Source: Escherichia coli (GTDB taxonomy: Bacteria; Pseudomonadota; Gammaproteobacteria; Enterobacterales; Enterobacteriaceae). From it: a stretch of DNA of 64,000 bases. The notes below the pieces were generated by a model, which saw only the letters and a program-made list of their open reading frames with translations, did no database searches and was not told the DNA's origin. How positions within the stretch are numbered: position 1 is the first letter of the stretch; each line of letters starts with the position of its first letter. The position numbers and the translations under genes are program-made. The stretch lies in the NCBI RefSeq assembly GCF_044647545.1, contig NZ_CP172818.1; one strand, 5' to 3'. Shown here piece by piece: positions 5,339 to 58,167 of the stretch.

Positions 5339-6880
<1,542 letters not shown>

Positions 6881-6958
6881 CCTTAAAGAAGCGTACTTTG
6901 AAGTGCTCACACAGATTGTCTGATAGAAAGTGAAAAGCAAGGCGTAAGCAGACGATAC

Positions 6959-7034: not shown

Positions 7035-7229
7035 CTTGCTGGTTTGTGAGTGAAAGTCACCTGCCTTAATATCTCAAAACTCATCTTCGGGTGACGTTTG
7101 AGATATTTGCTCTTTAAAAATCTGGATCAAGCTGAAAATTGAAACACTGAATAGTCGAAAGATTATTCGTGAGTCTCTCAAATTTTCGCAACACGATGAT
7201 GAATCGAAAGAAACATCTTCGGGTTGTGA

Positions 7230-10134
<2,905 letters not shown>

Positions 10135-10225: not shown

Positions 10226-10345
10226 TGCCTGGCGGCCTTAGCGCGGTGGTCCCACCTGACCCCATGCCGAACTCAGAAGTGAAACGCCGTAGCGCCGATG
10301 GTAGTGTGGGGTCTCCCCATGCGAGAGTAGGGAACTGCCAGGCAT
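10226..10345 (+). rRNA. rrfB: 5S ribosomal RNA (rrnB operon), 120 nt
   Basis: TGCCTGGCGGCC...GGGAACTGCCAGGCAT. Confidence 0.97.
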
Positions 10346-10359
10346 CAAATTTAGCAGAA

Positions 10360-10387
10360 GGCCCAGTCGGAAGACTGGGCCTTTTTG
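10360..10387 (+). terminator. rrnB intrinsic terminator (single hairpin + T-tract)
   Basis: GGCCCAGTC-GGAA-GACTGGGCC followed by TTTTTGCG immediately after 5S. Confidence 0.8.
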
Positions 10388-10479
10388 CGTTTCTACAAAC
10401 ACTCCCTGTCGTCATAACTACAAGCCATCCCCCCACAGATACGGTAAACTAGCCTCGTTTTTGCATCAGGAAAGCAGCT

Positions 10480-19227: not shown

Positions 19228-19245
19228 GCCAACCCTTCCGGTTGC

Positions 19246-19298
19246 AGCCTGAGAAATCAGGCTGATGGCTGGTGACTTTTTAGTCACCAGCCTTTTTG
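19246..19298 (+). terminator. rplL-rpoB intercistronic attenuator (partial terminator)
   Basis: Two hairpins CAGCCTGA-GAAA-TCAGGCTG and GGCTGGTGAC-TTTTTA-GTCACCAGCC followed by TTTTTG. Confidence 0.8.
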
Positions 19299-27875: not shown

Positions 27876-27896
27876 TCGTTAATCCGCAAATAACGT

Positions 27897-27922
27897 AAAA
27901 ACCCGCTTCGGCGGTTTTTTTA
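27897..27922 (+). terminator. rpoC intrinsic terminator
   Basis: AAAAACCCGC-TTCG-GCGGTTTTTTT. Confidence 0.8.
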
Positions 27923-28108
27923 AACAAATCCAGACTTTGCTTCACGGGAAATATTAAGAAAGGCAGGGCGAAACGAGGAAGAAGCTTTTCGCCCTGGACA
28001 ACATTCCTGCTGACGGCACTACCATAAAAAAACACAACGCTTTCAACAACCTTGCGTTTTTCATCTTCCGTAGCGGCTCGGAATAAATTTACGTTGTTAC
28101 ATTCTGTT

Positions 28109-29242
28109 TCATGGCCTTTGCGAGGCGCGTCCCAGATAGCTGTCCCAGTCTTTCCATACCGGCTGCAAACCCTGAGCAGTTAACGCGGCAGCAACCGCTT
28201 CCGGTCTGCGATCGTCGTGCGGTGAGAACTGTTCCAGCTCGGGGTGATTGTCGGCATAGCCACCTGGCTGCGTTTTCGAAAAAGCGCTGACGTTATTAAT
28301 TGCCAGCGGAATCACGCGATCGCGAAACCACGGTGATTCCCGCGTGGAGAGTGACAGTTCAATCTCCGGTGCAAGCAGTCGGAAGGCGCAGATGGTTTGC
28401 ACTAACTGGCGTTCATCCATAATCGACGCAGGCTCAATGCCGCCAGTACATGGACGCAGGCGTGGGAAGGAGACAGAGTAGCGGCTTTGCCAGTAATGCT
28501 GTTGCAGCCATAGCAAATGTTCTGCAACCATATAGCAGTCAACGCGCCAGCTGTCGGAAAGGCCAATTAGCGCGCCGAGGCCTATCTTATCAATCCCCGC
28601 ACGGCCCAGCCGATCCGGCGTTTCCAGCCGCCAGAAGAAGTCCTGTTTTTTGCCTTTCAGATGATGGCGGGCATAAGTCGCCTCGTGATATGTCTCCTGA
28701 TAAACCATCACGCCATCGAGACCCAGCTGTTTTAGCTCGGCATATTCCGCCTCCGCCAGCGGTTGCACTTCCATCTGTAGTGAAGAGAACTGTTCACGCA
28801 GGGCAGGGAGATGACGACGAAAGTAATCCATCCCCACTTTCGCCTGATGTTCACCAGTGACTAAAAGCAGATGTTCAAAGCCCATCTCCCGTATAGCGGC
28901 GCTTTCCCTGGCAATATCCGCTTCATCCAGTGTTTTGCGCTTGATGCGATTGCTCATGGAAAATCCGCAGTACGTGCAGTCGTTAGCGCAAAGATTGGAA
29001 AGATAAAGCGGGACGTAGAAACTAACTGTGTTGCCAAATCGCTGACGGGTCAGACGCTGCGCTCGCTGGGCCAGTGGTTCCAGATAGCCACTGGCGGCGG
29101 GTGATAGCAATGCCATCATGTCGTCGCGGGTGAGTTGCGAGGCATTTAGCGCCCGCTCTACGTCAGCAGCCGTTTTGCCGTTGATACGCAGGCGGATGTC
29201 GTCCCAGTCCAGTTGTCGCCAGCGATCGCTGAAGGTTTTCAT
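28109..29242 (-). CDS. thiH: 2-iminoacetate synthase ThiH (radical SAM), 377 aa
   Basis: ORF track; CxxxCxxC radical-SAM cysteine cluster (CANDCTYC). Confidence 0.95.
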
Positions 29243-33539: not shown

Positions 33540-33650
33540 AAAGGCGATGCGATAGCAGATTAACTCTTGTTCCCTTCGCAGGTATTAGCCTGATCAGGTT
33601 CCGCGGATCCCGAATAAACGGTCTCAGCCAGTTAAGGCACTCCGACAAGA
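33540..33650 (-). promoter_or_regulatory. TPP riboswitch (thi box) in thiC leader
   Basis: Reverse complement reads ...GGCTGAGACCG...GGGATCCGCGGAACCTGATCAGGCTAATACCTGCGAAGGGAACAAG..., the conserved THI-element core, ~100 nt upstream of thiC start. Confidence 0.8.
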
Positions 33651-33705
33651 AATTAGCCCCGCAAACGGGGCGTTGAATGTAAATTACGCGTTAACAGCGC
33701 AGAAC

Positions 33706-45501: not shown

Positions 45502-47043
<1,542 letters not shown>

Positions 47044-47204: not shown

Positions 47205-47399
47205 CTTGCTGGTTTGTGAGTGAAAGTCACCTGCCTTAATATCTCAAAACTCATCTTCGGGTGACGTTTGAGATATTTGCTCTTTAAAAATCTGGATCAA
47301 GCTGAAAATTGAAACACTGAATAGTCGAAAGATTATTCGTGAGTCTCTCAAATTTTCGCAACACGATGATGAATCGAAAGAAACATCTTCGGGTTGTGA

Positions 47400-50303
<2,904 letters not shown>

Positions 50304-50395: not shown

Positions 50396-50515
50396 TGCCT
50401 GGCGGCCTTAGCGCGGTGGTCCCACCTGACCCCATGCCGAACTCAGAAGTGAAACGCCGTAGCGCCGATGGTAGTGTGGGGTCTCCCCATGCGAGAGTAG
50501 GGAACTGCCAGGCAT
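50396..50515 (+). rRNA. rrfE: 5S ribosomal RNA (rrnE operon), 120 nt
   Basis: Identical to rrfB copy. Confidence 0.97.
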
Positions 50516-50602
50516 CAAATTTAGCAGAAGCCCTGCGCTGGCGCACGCTCCAGCTTCACCGCGCGATAGCACTCGATAGGCGGTCGCACTTACCAGGCCA
50601 GC

Positions 50603-51046
50603 TTATTCCCCCACATATGCCAGATTCAGCAATGGATACGGTTTCCCCAAATCGTCCACCTCAGAGCGTCCCGTAACCTTAAAACCCATCTTCTTATAGA
50701 ACCCAACAGCCTGCTTATTTTGCTCATTAACATTGGTTGTCAGTTCCGGTGCCATCGAGAGCGCATGTTCCACCAGCATCCGGCCCACGCCACAACCGCG
50801 CGCATCAGGATCGACAAAAAGCGCATCCATATGCTGCCCACTTAACAACATAAACCCAACCAGCCGATCCCGCTCATTAACCGCGACCCACAACGGCGCT
50901 TCCGGCAAGAAGGAACGAACTAGCTCCTCCAGCTCGGCCCGATACTCTGCTGATAAAAAATCGTGAGTGGCATCGACAGAACGACACCAAATCGCAACGA
51001 GTTCCTCCCCTTCCTCATGCCGTGAGCGGCGAATACTAATAACCAT
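50603..51046 (-). CDS. yjaB: GNAT-family N-acetyltransferase YjaB, 147 aa
   Basis: ORF track; GNAT acetyl-CoA motif (R/Q-x-x-G-x-G/A: RGCGVGRML). Confidence 0.92.
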   Translation of the reverse strand: MVISIRRSRHEEGEELVAIWCRSVDATHDFLSAEYRAELEELVRSFLPEAPLWVAVNERDRLVGFMLLSGQHMDALFVDPDARGCGVGRMLVEHALSMAPELTTNVNEQNKQAVGFYKKMGFKVTGRSEVDDLGKPYPLLNLAYVGE

Positions 51047-51150
51047 TTTCTCTCCTTTTCGTCATTCTTATATTCTAACGTAGCCTTTTCCTTGAAACTT
51101 TCTCACCTTCAACATGCAGACTCGACATTGGCAAATTTTCTGGTTATCTT

Positions 51151-51202: not shown

Positions 51203-52132
51203 ATGCCGATTCGTGTGCCGGACGAGCTACCCGCCGTCAATTTCTTGCGTGAAGAAAACGTCTTTGTGATGACAACTTCTCGTGCGTCTGGTCAGGAAAT
51301 TCGTCCGCTAAAGGTACTTATCCTTAACCTGATGCCGAAGAAGATCGAAACTGAAAATCAGTTTCTGCGCCTGCTTTCAAACTCACCTTTGCAGGTCGAT
51401 ATTCAGCTGTTGCGCATTGATTCCCGTGAATCGCGCAACACGCCCGCAGAGCATCTGAATAACTTCTACTGTAACTTTGAAGATATTCAGGAACAAAACT
51501 TTGACGGTCTGATAGTTACCGGCGCGCCGCTGGGCCTGGTGGAGTTTAATGATGTCGCTTACTGGCCGCAGATCAAACAGGTGCTGGAGTGGTCGAAAGA
51601 TCACGTCACCTCGACGCTGTTTGTCTGCTGGGCGGTACAGGCCGCGCTAAATATCCTCTACGGCATTCCTAAGCAAACTCGCACCGACAAACTCTCTGGC
51701 GTTTACGAGCATCATATTCTCCATCCTCATGCGCTTCTGACGCGTGGCTTTGATGATTCATTCCTGGCACCGCATTCGCGCTATGCTGACTTTCCGGCAG
51801 CGTTGATTCGTGATTACACCGATCTGGAAATTCTGGCAGAGACGGAAGAAGGGGATGCATATCTGTTTGCCAGCAAAGATAAGCGCATTGCCTTTGTGAC
51901 GGGCCATCCCGAATATGATGCGCAAACGCTGGCGCAGGAATATTTCCGCGATGTGGAAGCCGGACTAGACCCGGAAGTACCGTATAACTATTTCCCGCAC
52001 AATGATCCGCAAAACAAACCGCGAGCGAGCTGGCGTAGTCACGGTAATTTGCTGTTTACCAACTGGCTCAACTATTACGTCTACCAGATCACGCCATACG
52101 ATCTACGGCACATGAATCCAACGCTGGATTAA
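51203..52132 (+). CDS. metA: Homoserine O-succinyltransferase MetA, 309 aa
   Basis: ORF track. Confidence 0.96.
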
Positions 52133-52176: not shown

Positions 52177-52200
52177 AGGCACCTTCGGGTGCCTTTTTTA
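52177..52200 (+). terminator. metA intrinsic terminator
   Basis: AGGCACC-TTCG-GGTGCCT followed by TTTTTTA. Confidence 0.85.
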
Positions 52201-52276
52201 TTTCCGAAACGCACCTCAGTAGGTGAATAAAATTTATTCATATTGTTATCAATAAGTTATCAAGTATTTTTAATTA

Positions 52277-55357: not shown

Positions 55358-55397
55358 CTGTAGGCCACGGATAAGGCATTTACGCCGCATCCGGCAA
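55358..55397. repeat. REP (repetitive extragenic palindromic) element between aceA and aceK
   Basis: CTGTAGGCCACGGATAAGGCATTTACGCCGCATCCGGCAA, canonical REP-like palindrome. Confidence 0.7.
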
Positions 55398-55423: not shown

Positions 55424-57968
<2,545 letters not shown>

Positions 57969-57991
57969 GACAGTCTCCTTTTTCTGTATCG

Positions 57992-58006
57992 TGGAAATCA
58001 TTTTCA
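57992..58006. promoter_or_regulatory. Putative IclR autoregulatory operator upstream of iclR
   Basis: TGGAAATCATTTTCA, near-palindromic match to IclR box TGGAAAT-N-ATTTCCA, 24-38 nt upstream of iclR start. Confidence 0.45.
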
Positions 58007-58167
58007 TTTTTATTGTTAGCTAATGCAATAGTTGCTGAACTGATCCGATGAGTTAATGTTGAACAAATCTCATGTTGCGTGGTGGTCGCTTTTACCACAG
58101 ATGCGTTTATGCCAGTATGGTTTGTTGAATTTTTATTAAATCTGGGTTGAGCGTGTCGGGAGCAAGT

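What the first reader, a model, noticed from the sequence alone, without database searches (positions are those of the whole stretch)
50516..50610. rrnE has no recognisable intrinsic terminator before the convergent yjaB
After rrfB the sequence CAAATTTAGCAGAAG is followed by a strong hairpin plus T-tract. After rrfE the same CAAATTTAGCAGAAG is followed by unrelated sequence (CCCTGCGCTGGCGCACGCTCCAGCTTCACC...) with only a weak 5-bp stem and no U-tract, running directly into the 3' end of yjaB on the opposite strand. Divergence begins exactly where the terminator hairpin would start, consistent with a deletion that removed terminator and yjaA together. Highly transcribed rrnE could read through antisense into yjaB unless Rho terminates it.
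Basis: seen in the sequence. Interest (0 to 1): 0.35.

Follow-up and report, generated by a model that had tools for sequence, protein, structure and literature searches.

The report
Missing rrnE terminator: probably a sequence artefact
The ribosomal RNA operon rrnE in this E. coli sequence really does lack its usual stop signal, but the gap sits in a scrambled 68-base patch found in no other E. coli genome, one of five such patches here, so it is most likely an error in the sequence record and not biology.

Summary
rrfB and rrfE are both followed by CAAATTTAGCAGAAG. After rrfB comes a strong hairpin plus T5. After rrfE come 72 nt with no hairpin or T-tract, running into the stop codon of the convergent yjaB.

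The window is an ST648-like (phylogroup F) E. coli. It has zero substitutions in about 54 kb of non-rRNA DNA relative to FDAARGOS_497 and other ST648 genomes. Those genomes also lack yjaA, yet they keep a canonical rrnE terminator followed by a decayed REP. So yjaA and the terminator were not lost in one deletion.

The window's spacer is a multi-lesion derivative of the ST648 spacer:
- a roughly 46-nt block including the hairpin is missing;
- there are at least six small indels, a 17-nt insertion and three substitutions.

It occurs in none of 5,426 complete E. coli genomes, GTDB representatives or JGI metagenomes. Four more private lesions lie in the same window, each at a predicted hairpin: the rpoC terminator, the aceK 3' end, a REP and the rrnB spacer. 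Natural rrn-copy variants, used as controls, are found elsewhere at 100% identity.

The best reading is a record-level artefact (about 0.6). The rival is a real, strain-private lesion (about 0.3), which would send Rho-resistant rrnE transcription antisense through yjaB and on through metA to the terminator at 52177. Interest is low.

The parts
50398..50513 (+). rrfE, the 5S rRNA gene at the end of rrnE
   Evidence: Rfam RF00001, 93.2 bits
50516..50530 (+). 15-mer CAAATTTAGCAGAAG, shared with the rrnB distal end
   Evidence: Exact matches at only two places in the window
50531..50598 (.). Private, garbled spacer. It is a degenerate derivative of the ST648 'terminator + decayed REP' spacer. The hairpin and T-tract are missing.
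   Evidence: Alignment to FDAARGOS_497. No structure beyond shuffles on either strand. No match in 5,426 E. coli genomes. No exact 25-/28-mer hit in metagenome or GTDB contigs.
50603..51046 (-). yjaB (acetyltransferase), convergent with rrnE
   Evidence: ORF. 100% identical to the annotated yjaB of FDAARGOS_497.
51203..52132 (+). metA, co-directional with rrnE. It would be transcribed by any read-through.
   Evidence: ORF. Annotation of the identical sequence.
52177..52204 (+). First canonical + strand intrinsic terminator downstream of rrfE: AGGCACC-TTCG-GGTGCCT + TTTTTATTTC, after metA
   Evidence: Terminator scan
10228..10343 (+). rrfB, the 5S rRNA gene (comparison copy)
   Evidence: Rfam RF00001
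10360..10386 (+). Intact rrnB terminator: hairpin GGCCCAGTC-GGAA-GACTGGGCC plus T5
   Evidence: Sequence. Fold z = -4.08. Hairpin dG -18.8 to -21.3 kcal/mol. 100% identical in other ST648-like genomes.
27913..27941 (+). Second private garbled patch. The rpoC terminator loses one G from its 3' arm, and about 25 nt downstream are replaced.
57118..57136 (+). Third private garbled patch. Eight separate deletions within 40 nt at the aceK 3' end and the aceK-iclR spacer.
6946..6954 (+). Private 7-nt loss in the rrnB 16S-tRNA-Glu spacer
55366..55367 (+). Private CA insertion in the REP between aceA and aceK

Best explanation
The missing rrnE terminator is most likely not a biological feature. It is a local corruption of the sequence record, such as a sequencing, gap-filling or consensus error at structured DNA, or some other non-biological edit. 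The organism is an ST648-like, phylogroup F E. coli. In that clone the real locus reads rrfE, then CAAATTAAGCAGAAG, then the hairpin GGCCCAGTCGGAAGACTGGGC with T6, then a decayed REP, then the yjaB stop codon. The window holds a scrambled and shortened version of that spacer (89 nt in place of 127 nt between rrfE and the stop codon), and the scrambling removes the hairpin. Four more patches of the same kind lie in the same 64 kb.

Shown: the patch is unique, it carries several lesions, the background is clonal, and the lesions are not randomly placed. Inferred: the cause is technical and not mutational.
For: 1. Clonal background. Against FDAARGOS_497 the window has no difference in about 54 kb of non-rRNA DNA apart from five small patches. 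At least 12 ST648-like genomes give the same scores.
2. Those relatives carry a canonical terminator after rrfE, and their spacer folds with z = -3.25.
3. The window patch aligns to the relatives' spacer better than shuffles do (score 16 against -3.4 +/- 6.0). The alignment needs a 46-nt block loss, at least six small indels, a 17-nt insertion and three substitutions. That is not the signature of a single mutational event.
4. The patch is private. It has no blastn match in 5,426 complete E. coli genomes. Its 25-mer and 28-mer have no exact hit in JGI metagenomes or in 100,044 GTDB species representatives.
5. The other four patches are also private. One of them gives AceK an aberrant C-terminus that runs into iclR, and that protein is absent from a 153-billion-gene index.
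6. Positive controls. The rRNA and ITS differences at 7152-7165 and 8399-8439 are found at 100% identity in other genomes. The search therefore does recover natural variants.
7. Position is not random. Only 9.7% of the stretch lies outside annotated genes, yet four lesions lie wholly there and the fifth straddles a gene end (P about 9e-5). Every lesion lowers the local folding stability. This fits failures that depend on DNA structure.
Against: I have no reads, quality values or assembly metadata, so the artefact is inferred and not demonstrated. The window's rRNA genes look clean, with normal lengths and Rfam scores, and there are no scattered single-base errors in coding DNA. The source is therefore not a generally poor assembly. 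Purifying selection could also explain why lesions avoid coding DNA. Three patches coincide with known gene presence/absence junctions of E. coli, which I cannot explain under either view. The public collections searched do not hold every E. coli isolate.
Confidence: 0.6

Rival explanations
1. The lesion is real and private to this strain. This isolate has truly lost the rrnE terminator. RNA polymerase leaving rrfE still carries the rrn antitermination complex, which resists Rho. It would therefore cross the C-rich, untranslated antisense strand of yjaB and the yjaB/metA promoter region, then transcribe metA. It would stop at the metA terminator (52177-52204), about 1.66 kb downstream. The expected effects are antisense interference and head-on collisions that lower yjaB expression, and metA expression that escapes its normal control. 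yjaB would also lose the hairpin that probably serves it in the reverse direction.
For: The sequence as given has no + strand terminator before 52177. The + strand RNA across 50516-51115 is C-rich and G-poor, with C/G of 1.3-5.8, so Rho could load on it. However, rrn antitermination complexes resist Rho-dependent termination and even reduce intrinsic termination (PMC6614801). The window's coding and rRNA sequence is otherwise of high quality.
Against: It would require five independent, messy lesions at predicted hairpins and no point substitutions in a clonal background. No second genome carries any of them. One lesion damages AceK and another weakens the rpoC terminator. All 12 sampled E. coli keep a strong terminator here, which suggests selection against its loss.
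Confidence: 0.3
2. A single deletion removed yjaA together with the rrnE terminator, joining the rrfE tail directly to DNA near the end of yjaB.
For: yjaA is absent and the terminator is absent. K-12-like genomes carry yjaA between rrfE and yjaB.
Against: Relatives without yjaA and with identical flanks keep the terminator. yjaA-less genomes of several architectures all have it. The window's spacer is homologous to the REP remnant of the yjaA-less ST648 allele. It is not homologous to the K-12 yjaA-yjaB spacer (local alignment score 41 against 17). Lack of yjaA is the normal state of phylogroup F in the Clermont typing scheme (own knowledge; the scheme is named in PMC9686695).
Confidence: 0.03
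3. The spacer is a natural divergent allele brought in by homologous recombination from another Escherichia lineage. One crossover would lie inside the conserved rrn operon and the other just before the yjaB stop codon.
For: The rrnE-distal region is highly polymorphic in E. coli, with at least four architectures. The rrfE tail carries the rrnB-type T (CAAATTTAG) where ST648 rrnE has A, so some exchange among rrn copies is plausible.
Against: No donor-like sequence exists in 5,426 E. coli genomes, GTDB species representatives or JGI metagenomes. The right-hand boundary would have to fall within 5 nt of the yjaB stop codon and bring in no SNP in yjaB. It does not explain the other four private patches.
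Confidence: 0.05

Closest known systems
E. coli rrn operon distal terminators (rrnB T1/T2 and the rrnE terminator of K-12 and ST648)
   Same: Same genomic position, immediately 3' of the 5S gene, with the same leader 15-mer. The window's own rrnB has the canonical form. All 12 sampled E. coli rrnE copies have one or two such hairpins.
   Different: The window's rrnE copy has no hairpin and no T-tract.
REP (repetitive extragenic palindromic) element remnant between the rrnE terminator and yjaB in yjaA-less E. coli
   Same: Bases 50531-50598 align to the decayed REP GCCGGCTGCGACGCTGGCGCGTCTGCTCCAGC... of ST648.
   Different: The window copy has further indels that destroy most of the palindrome. 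Its fold is no better than shuffles, whereas the ST648 spacer has z = -3.25.
yjaA presence/absence polymorphism used in Clermont phylotyping
   Same: The window lacks yjaA between rrfE and yjaB. It also lacks arpA between aceK and iclR. Both are expected for phylogroup F (own knowledge; the scheme is named in PMC9686695).
   Different: That polymorphism does not involve the terminator. Genomes with and without yjaA both keep one.
Rho-dependent termination of untranslated or antisense transcripts
   Same: The read-through RNA would be untranslated, C-rich and G-poor. That is the composition Rho prefers.
   Different: The polymerase arriving here would carry the rrn antitermination complex, which resists Rho (PMC6614801). 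No experimental 3' ends are available.

Membership tests
Intrinsic (Rho-independent) terminator | Stable G+C-rich RNA hairpin just downstream of the transcript's functional end | tested here: not met
   The best local stem in 50516-50610 is a 5-bp GCUGG/CCAGC. The fold has z = -0.17. No hit in the scans.
Intrinsic (Rho-independent) terminator | U-tract (at least 5 T in 8) directly after the hairpin | tested here: not met
   The scans found no hairpin followed by at least 5 T in 8 between rrfE and yjaB, and no such T-run is visible in 50516-50602.
Intrinsic (Rho-independent) terminator | Conserved at the same position in relatives | tested here: not met
   Relatives have one there and the window does not. 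All 12 of 12 sampled genomes have a hairpin+T-tract starting 10-16 nt after rrfE.
Rho-dependent terminator | C-rich, G-poor, unstructured and untranslated RNA of about 80 nt (rut-like) | tested here: inconclusive
   C/G is 1.3-5.8 in all 80-nt windows from 50516 to 51115. Composition alone does not show function, and rrn complexes resist Rho.
Rho-dependent terminator | Rho- and bicyclomycin-sensitive 3' ends in vivo | not testable with these tools
   This needs Term-seq or RNA-seq with and without bicyclomycin.
REP element | Imperfect palindrome of about 35 nt matching the GCC(G/T)GATGCG...CTTATC(C/A)GGCCTAC consensus (recalled from memory) | tested here: not met
   Only partial similarity to the already decayed ST648 copy, and the palindrome is lost. 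I made no formal comparison with the REP consensus.
Sequence-record artefact | The variant is absent from all independent sequences of the same clone and species | tested here: met
Sequence-record artefact | Multiple clustered lesions that one mutational event cannot explain, set in an otherwise identical background | tested here: met
Sequence-record artefact | Similar unexplained patches elsewhere in the same record, while natural variants are recovered in other genomes (control) | tested here: met
   Four more private patches. Controls found at 100% identity.
Sequence-record artefact | The raw reads disagree with the consensus at the patch | not testable with these tools
   The source assembly and its reads are unknown. 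The aberrant AceK is not on record.

The most novel reading that the evidence does not exclude
A natural ST648-like E. coli isolate has truly lost the intrinsic terminator of one of its seven rRNA operons. It tolerates antitermination-modified, very high-flux transcription running antisense through yjaB and into metA. Such a strain would be a natural test of whether Rho, collisions with the yjaB promoter or the metA terminator can contain rrn read-through. Its genome would also carry an unusual process that destroys predicted hairpins.
Probability: 0.25. Interest if true: 0.4.

Novelty: not a real feature. Interest (0 to 1): 0.1.

Why it matters
If the lesion were real, a terminator-less rRNA operon would be a useful natural experiment. 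rrn transcription complexes resist Rho, so read-through could silence yjaB, deregulate metA and cause head-on conflicts. The fact that all 12 sampled E. coli genomes keep one or two strong terminators here suggests the loss is costly.

As things stand, the main value is a caution. This window contains five private, hairpin-destroying patches in an otherwise clonal sequence. Findings based on a 'missing' or 'odd' terminator, REP or gene end in this record (rrnE, rpoC, aceK) should not be taken as biology until they are checked against reads.

Tried and rejected
1. I looked for a cryptic terminator in 50516-50610 on both strands by folding and by two scans. None was found.

2. I tested whether the patch is the reverse complement of the relatives' spacer. 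The reverse score (17) is about the same as the forward score (16). That only reflects the palindromic REP, so there is no evidence for an inversion.

3. I looked for the source of the 17-nt insertion and of the new rpoC-downstream sequence elsewhere in the window. There is no second copy.

4. I compared the patch with the K-12 yjaA-yjaB spacer. They are not related, which rules out a simple excision of yjaA.

5. I tried to identify the source assembly or a second carrier:
- blastn of the patch against 5,426 E. coli genomes;
- exact 25-/28-mers in JGI metagenomes and in GTDB representatives;
- an exact look-up of the aberrant AceK protein.
All were negative.

6. A first script printed an oversized alignment because its left anchor matched the rrnB copy. 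I redid it correctly.

7. I did not run a protein-based scan of other species for the rrnE-yjaB junction.

Full report
**What the window is.** Rfam finds two complete rRNA operons: 16S at 5339-6880 and 45502-47043, 23S at 7230-10134 and 47400-50303, and 5S at 10228-10343 and 50398-50513. The gene order is btuB-murI-rrnB-murB ... rpoBC-thi ... purHD-rrnE-yjaB-metA-aceBAK-iclR-metH. It comes from the RefSeq annotation of the near-identical genome FDAARGOS_497. The segment 50603-53000 is 100% identical to more than 20 E. coli genomes, including the one named 'strain ST648'. Segments of 25 kb and 13 kb are 99.8-99.9% identical to the same set. The window therefore comes from an ST648-like E. coli. 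From my own knowledge ST648 belongs to phylogroup F. The absence of yjaA, and of arpA between aceK and iclR, fits that group in the Clermont scheme, which is named in PMC9686695.

**Checking the observation.** The 15-mer CAAATTTAGCAGAAG occurs exactly twice, directly after each 5S gene. After rrfB it runs into the hairpin GGCCCAGTC-GGAA-GACTGGGCC and T5 at 10360-10386. That fold has z = -4.08. After rrfE the sequence differs from base 50531 onward. The 95 nt named in the finding fold no better than shuffles (z = -0.17). The same holds for the opposite strand (z = +0.47). Neither the tool's terminator scan nor my own hairpin+T-tract scan finds anything between rrfE and the yjaB stop codon at 50603-50605.

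**What relatives have at this place.** I took 12 E. coli genomes spread across the ranking of a population-wide search (loci). All 12 have a strong hairpin plus T-tract starting 10-16 nt after rrfE, with dG of -15 to -24 kcal/mol for the longer stems. At least four natural architectures exist:
- a single GGCCCAGTC...GACTGGGCC hairpin, then a decayed REP, then yjaB (FDAARGOS_497, EC0880B, strain 4);
- a T2-type hairpin GGCCATCC...GGATGGCC (O157:H7);
- a T1 hairpin, a partial 5S remnant and a T2 hairpin, without yjaA (TOE51, ETEC1738, MS 198-1, ETEC1749);
- a hairpin followed by yjaA (K-12-like AML002, P4, 4/0, EC42405).

A terminator is present whether or not yjaA is present. In the nearest relatives, which also lack yjaA, the spacer reads CAAATTAAGCAGAAG-GCCCAGTCGGAAGACTGGGC-TTTTTT-GCGTTGGTGCGGAATAAAT-GCCGGCTGCGACGCTGGCGCGTCTGCTCCAGCTTACGCAGGCACGATAGCACGATAGGGGGCAGC-TTA. 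It folds with z = -3.25.

**What the window's spacer is.** Bases 50531-50598 are not unrelated sequence. They align to the part of the ST648 spacer that lies downstream of the terminator, with a score of 16 against -3.4 +/- 6.0 for shuffles. The alignment needs many changes:
- loss of a roughly 46-nt block holding the hairpin, the T-tract and about 20 more bases;
- at least six further 1-3-nt indels;
- a 17-nt insertion (CGGTCGCACTTACCAGG) that has no second copy in the window;
- three substitutions.

The patch bears no relation to the K-12 yjaA-yjaB spacer.

**The decisive context.** A base-by-base comparison with FDAARGOS_497 shows no difference at all in about 54 kb of non-rRNA DNA, apart from small patches:
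- 27913-27941, just after rpoC;
- 50522-50598, the finding;
- 55366-55367, a CA insertion in the aceA-aceK REP;
- 57118-57136, at the aceK 3' end.

Within rrnB there is also a 7-nt loss at 6946-6954, and there are several rRNA and ITS micro-differences. Details of the patches are as follows.
- The rpoC patch removes one G from the 3' arm of the rpoC terminator and replaces the next 25 nt or so.
- The aceK patch consists of eight separate deletions within 40 nt and no substitution. It gives a 588-aa AceK with the C-terminus ...[28 protein letters not shown], which runs into iclR. No gene with that product is on record.
- Each patch is private. None of 5,426 complete E. coli genomes has the window's version of the rpoC patch (best full-length identity 85.9%) or of the aceK patch (best match split in two pieces). 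The same is true of the rrnB spacer (best full-length identity 92.9% among about 21,600 copies), the REP insertion (best 97.8%) and the rrnE patch (no blastn match).
- Exact 25- and 28-mers of the rrnE patch are absent from JGI metagenome contigs and from 100,044 GTDB species representatives.

As positive controls, the rRNA and ITS differences at 8399-8439 and 7152-7165 are found at 100% identity in other genomes. They are ordinary allele shuffling among rrn copies, so the searches do recover natural variation.

**Non-randomness.** Only 9.7% of the homologous stretch lies outside annotated genes. Four lesions lie wholly there and the fifth straddles the end of aceK. If lesions fell uniformly, the chance of four out of four would be about 9e-5. 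Every lesion lowers the local folding stability:

| Site | Reference (kcal/mol) | Window (kcal/mol) |
|---|---|---|
| rpoC terminator | -22.8 | -9.3 |
| rrnE spacer | -68.2 | -34.5 |
| aceA-aceK REP | -26.0 | -20.8 |
| aceK-iclR | -26.9 | -22.3 |
| rrnB spacer | -22.0 | -15.1 |

**Interpretation.** The background shows no point substitution, yet it carries five messy lesions at predicted hairpins that occur in no other genome. That is not what mutation and descent normally produce. It is what one expects from sequencing, gap-filling or consensus failures that depend on DNA structure, or from some other non-biological alteration of the record. I put this at about 0.6. I cannot prove it without reads. 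The clean coding and rRNA sequence shows that the source is not a generally poor assembly. Three patches also coincide with known gene presence/absence junctions of E. coli: yjaA, arpA and, from memory, yjaZ/htrC after rpoC. I cannot explain that coincidence.

**If the sequence is real (about 0.3).** The mechanism would be as follows.
- RNA polymerase leaving rrfE carries the rrn antitermination complex (NusA, NusB, NusE, NusG, S4, SuhB). That complex resists Rho-dependent termination and even reduces intrinsic termination (PMC6614801; its components are also listed in PMC12360218).
- The next canonical + strand terminator is AGGCACC-TTCG-GGTGCCT-TTTTT at 52177-52204, after metA.
- The RNA in between is antisense to yjaB. 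It is C-rich and G-poor, with C/G of 1.3-5.8. Rho could load on it but would be expected to work poorly on these complexes.
- The predicted results are antisense transcription and head-on collisions over yjaB, and co-transcription of metA. These steps are inferred, not shown.
- In relatives the hairpin is followed on the minus strand by CUUCUGCUUAAUUUG. It may therefore also terminate yjaB, and yjaB would lose that terminator too. This is also an inference.

**Comparison with known systems and novelty.** The closest known things are the rrn distal terminators (rrnB T1/T2 and their rrnE counterparts), the REP remnant next to them, and the yjaA polymorphism used in phylotyping. The window's spacer fails both defining features of an intrinsic terminator. 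It meets only the compositional feature of a Rho site. It meets every testable criterion for a record-level artefact.

I classify the finding as 'not a real feature' and give it low interest (0.1). The most novel reading that remains open is a natural, tolerated, terminator-less rRNA operon. I give that a probability of about 0.25 and moderate interest if true.

Noticed in passing
window 27913-27941: The rpoC terminator (AAAAACCCGC-TTCG-GCGGG-T7 in relatives) has lost one G from its 3' arm, and the following 25 nt or so are replaced by sequence found in no other E. coli genome. Local folding falls from -22.8 to -9.3 kcal/mol.
   Followed up: partly
window 57118-57190 (aceK 55424-57190, iclR 57144-58007 minus strand): There are eight separate small deletions within 40 nt at the aceK 3' end. 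They give a 588-aa AceK whose last 24 residues are aberrant and whose ORF overlaps iclR by 47 nt. The variant occurs in no other genome, and the protein is not on record.
   Followed up: partly
window 6946-6954: The rrnB 16S-tRNA-Glu spacer lacks CTTGCG and a T, which removes the 3' arm of a small GCAAG/CTTGC hairpin. The window's own rrnE spacer is normal. No full-length identical copy exists among about 21,600 spacer copies in E. coli genomes.
   Followed up: partly
window 55366-55367: A private CA insertion lies in the 5' arm of the REP element between aceA and aceK.
   Followed up: partly
window 10346-10400: In this lineage rrnB ends with a single hairpin that looks like a hybrid of K-12 rrnB T1 (stem) and T2 (leader and tail). 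K-12 has the T1-5S remnant-T2 tandem here. The single-hairpin form is natural: 198 genomes are at least 99% identical over this stretch. The comparison with K-12 T1/T2 is from memory.
   Followed up: partly
loci L001-L004, L007-L014 (rrfE-yjaB region of 12 E. coli genomes): The distal end of rrnE is strongly polymorphic in E. coli. There are at least four architectures: a single hairpin of two sequence types, a T1+5S-remnant+T2 tandem, and forms with or without yjaA. All have at least one strong terminator.
   Followed up: yes
window 27878-28120, 50514-50602, 57137-57143: The three larger private patches all sit where E. coli lineages differ by gene presence or absence: yjaA after rrnE, arpA between aceK and iclR, and (from memory, not tested) yjaZ/htrC after rpoC. 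The coincidence is unexplained.
   Followed up: no
window 8399, 8649, 9870, 46167, 47805, 48728, 48818: The window has single extra G residues in 16S and 23S relative to FDAARGOS_497. The window's 23S copies span 2904-2905 nt, while the reference's annotated 23S copies span 2901-2902 nt. The errors here are therefore probably in the reference and not in the window.
   Followed up: no
window 7112-7222, 47282-47392, 19232-19293, 2065-2254, 33554-33654: Other Rfam hits are in their expected places: StyR-44 in both 16S-23S spacers, P26 between rplL and rpoB, the cobalamin riboswitch before btuB, and the TPP riboswitch before thiC.
   Followed up: no
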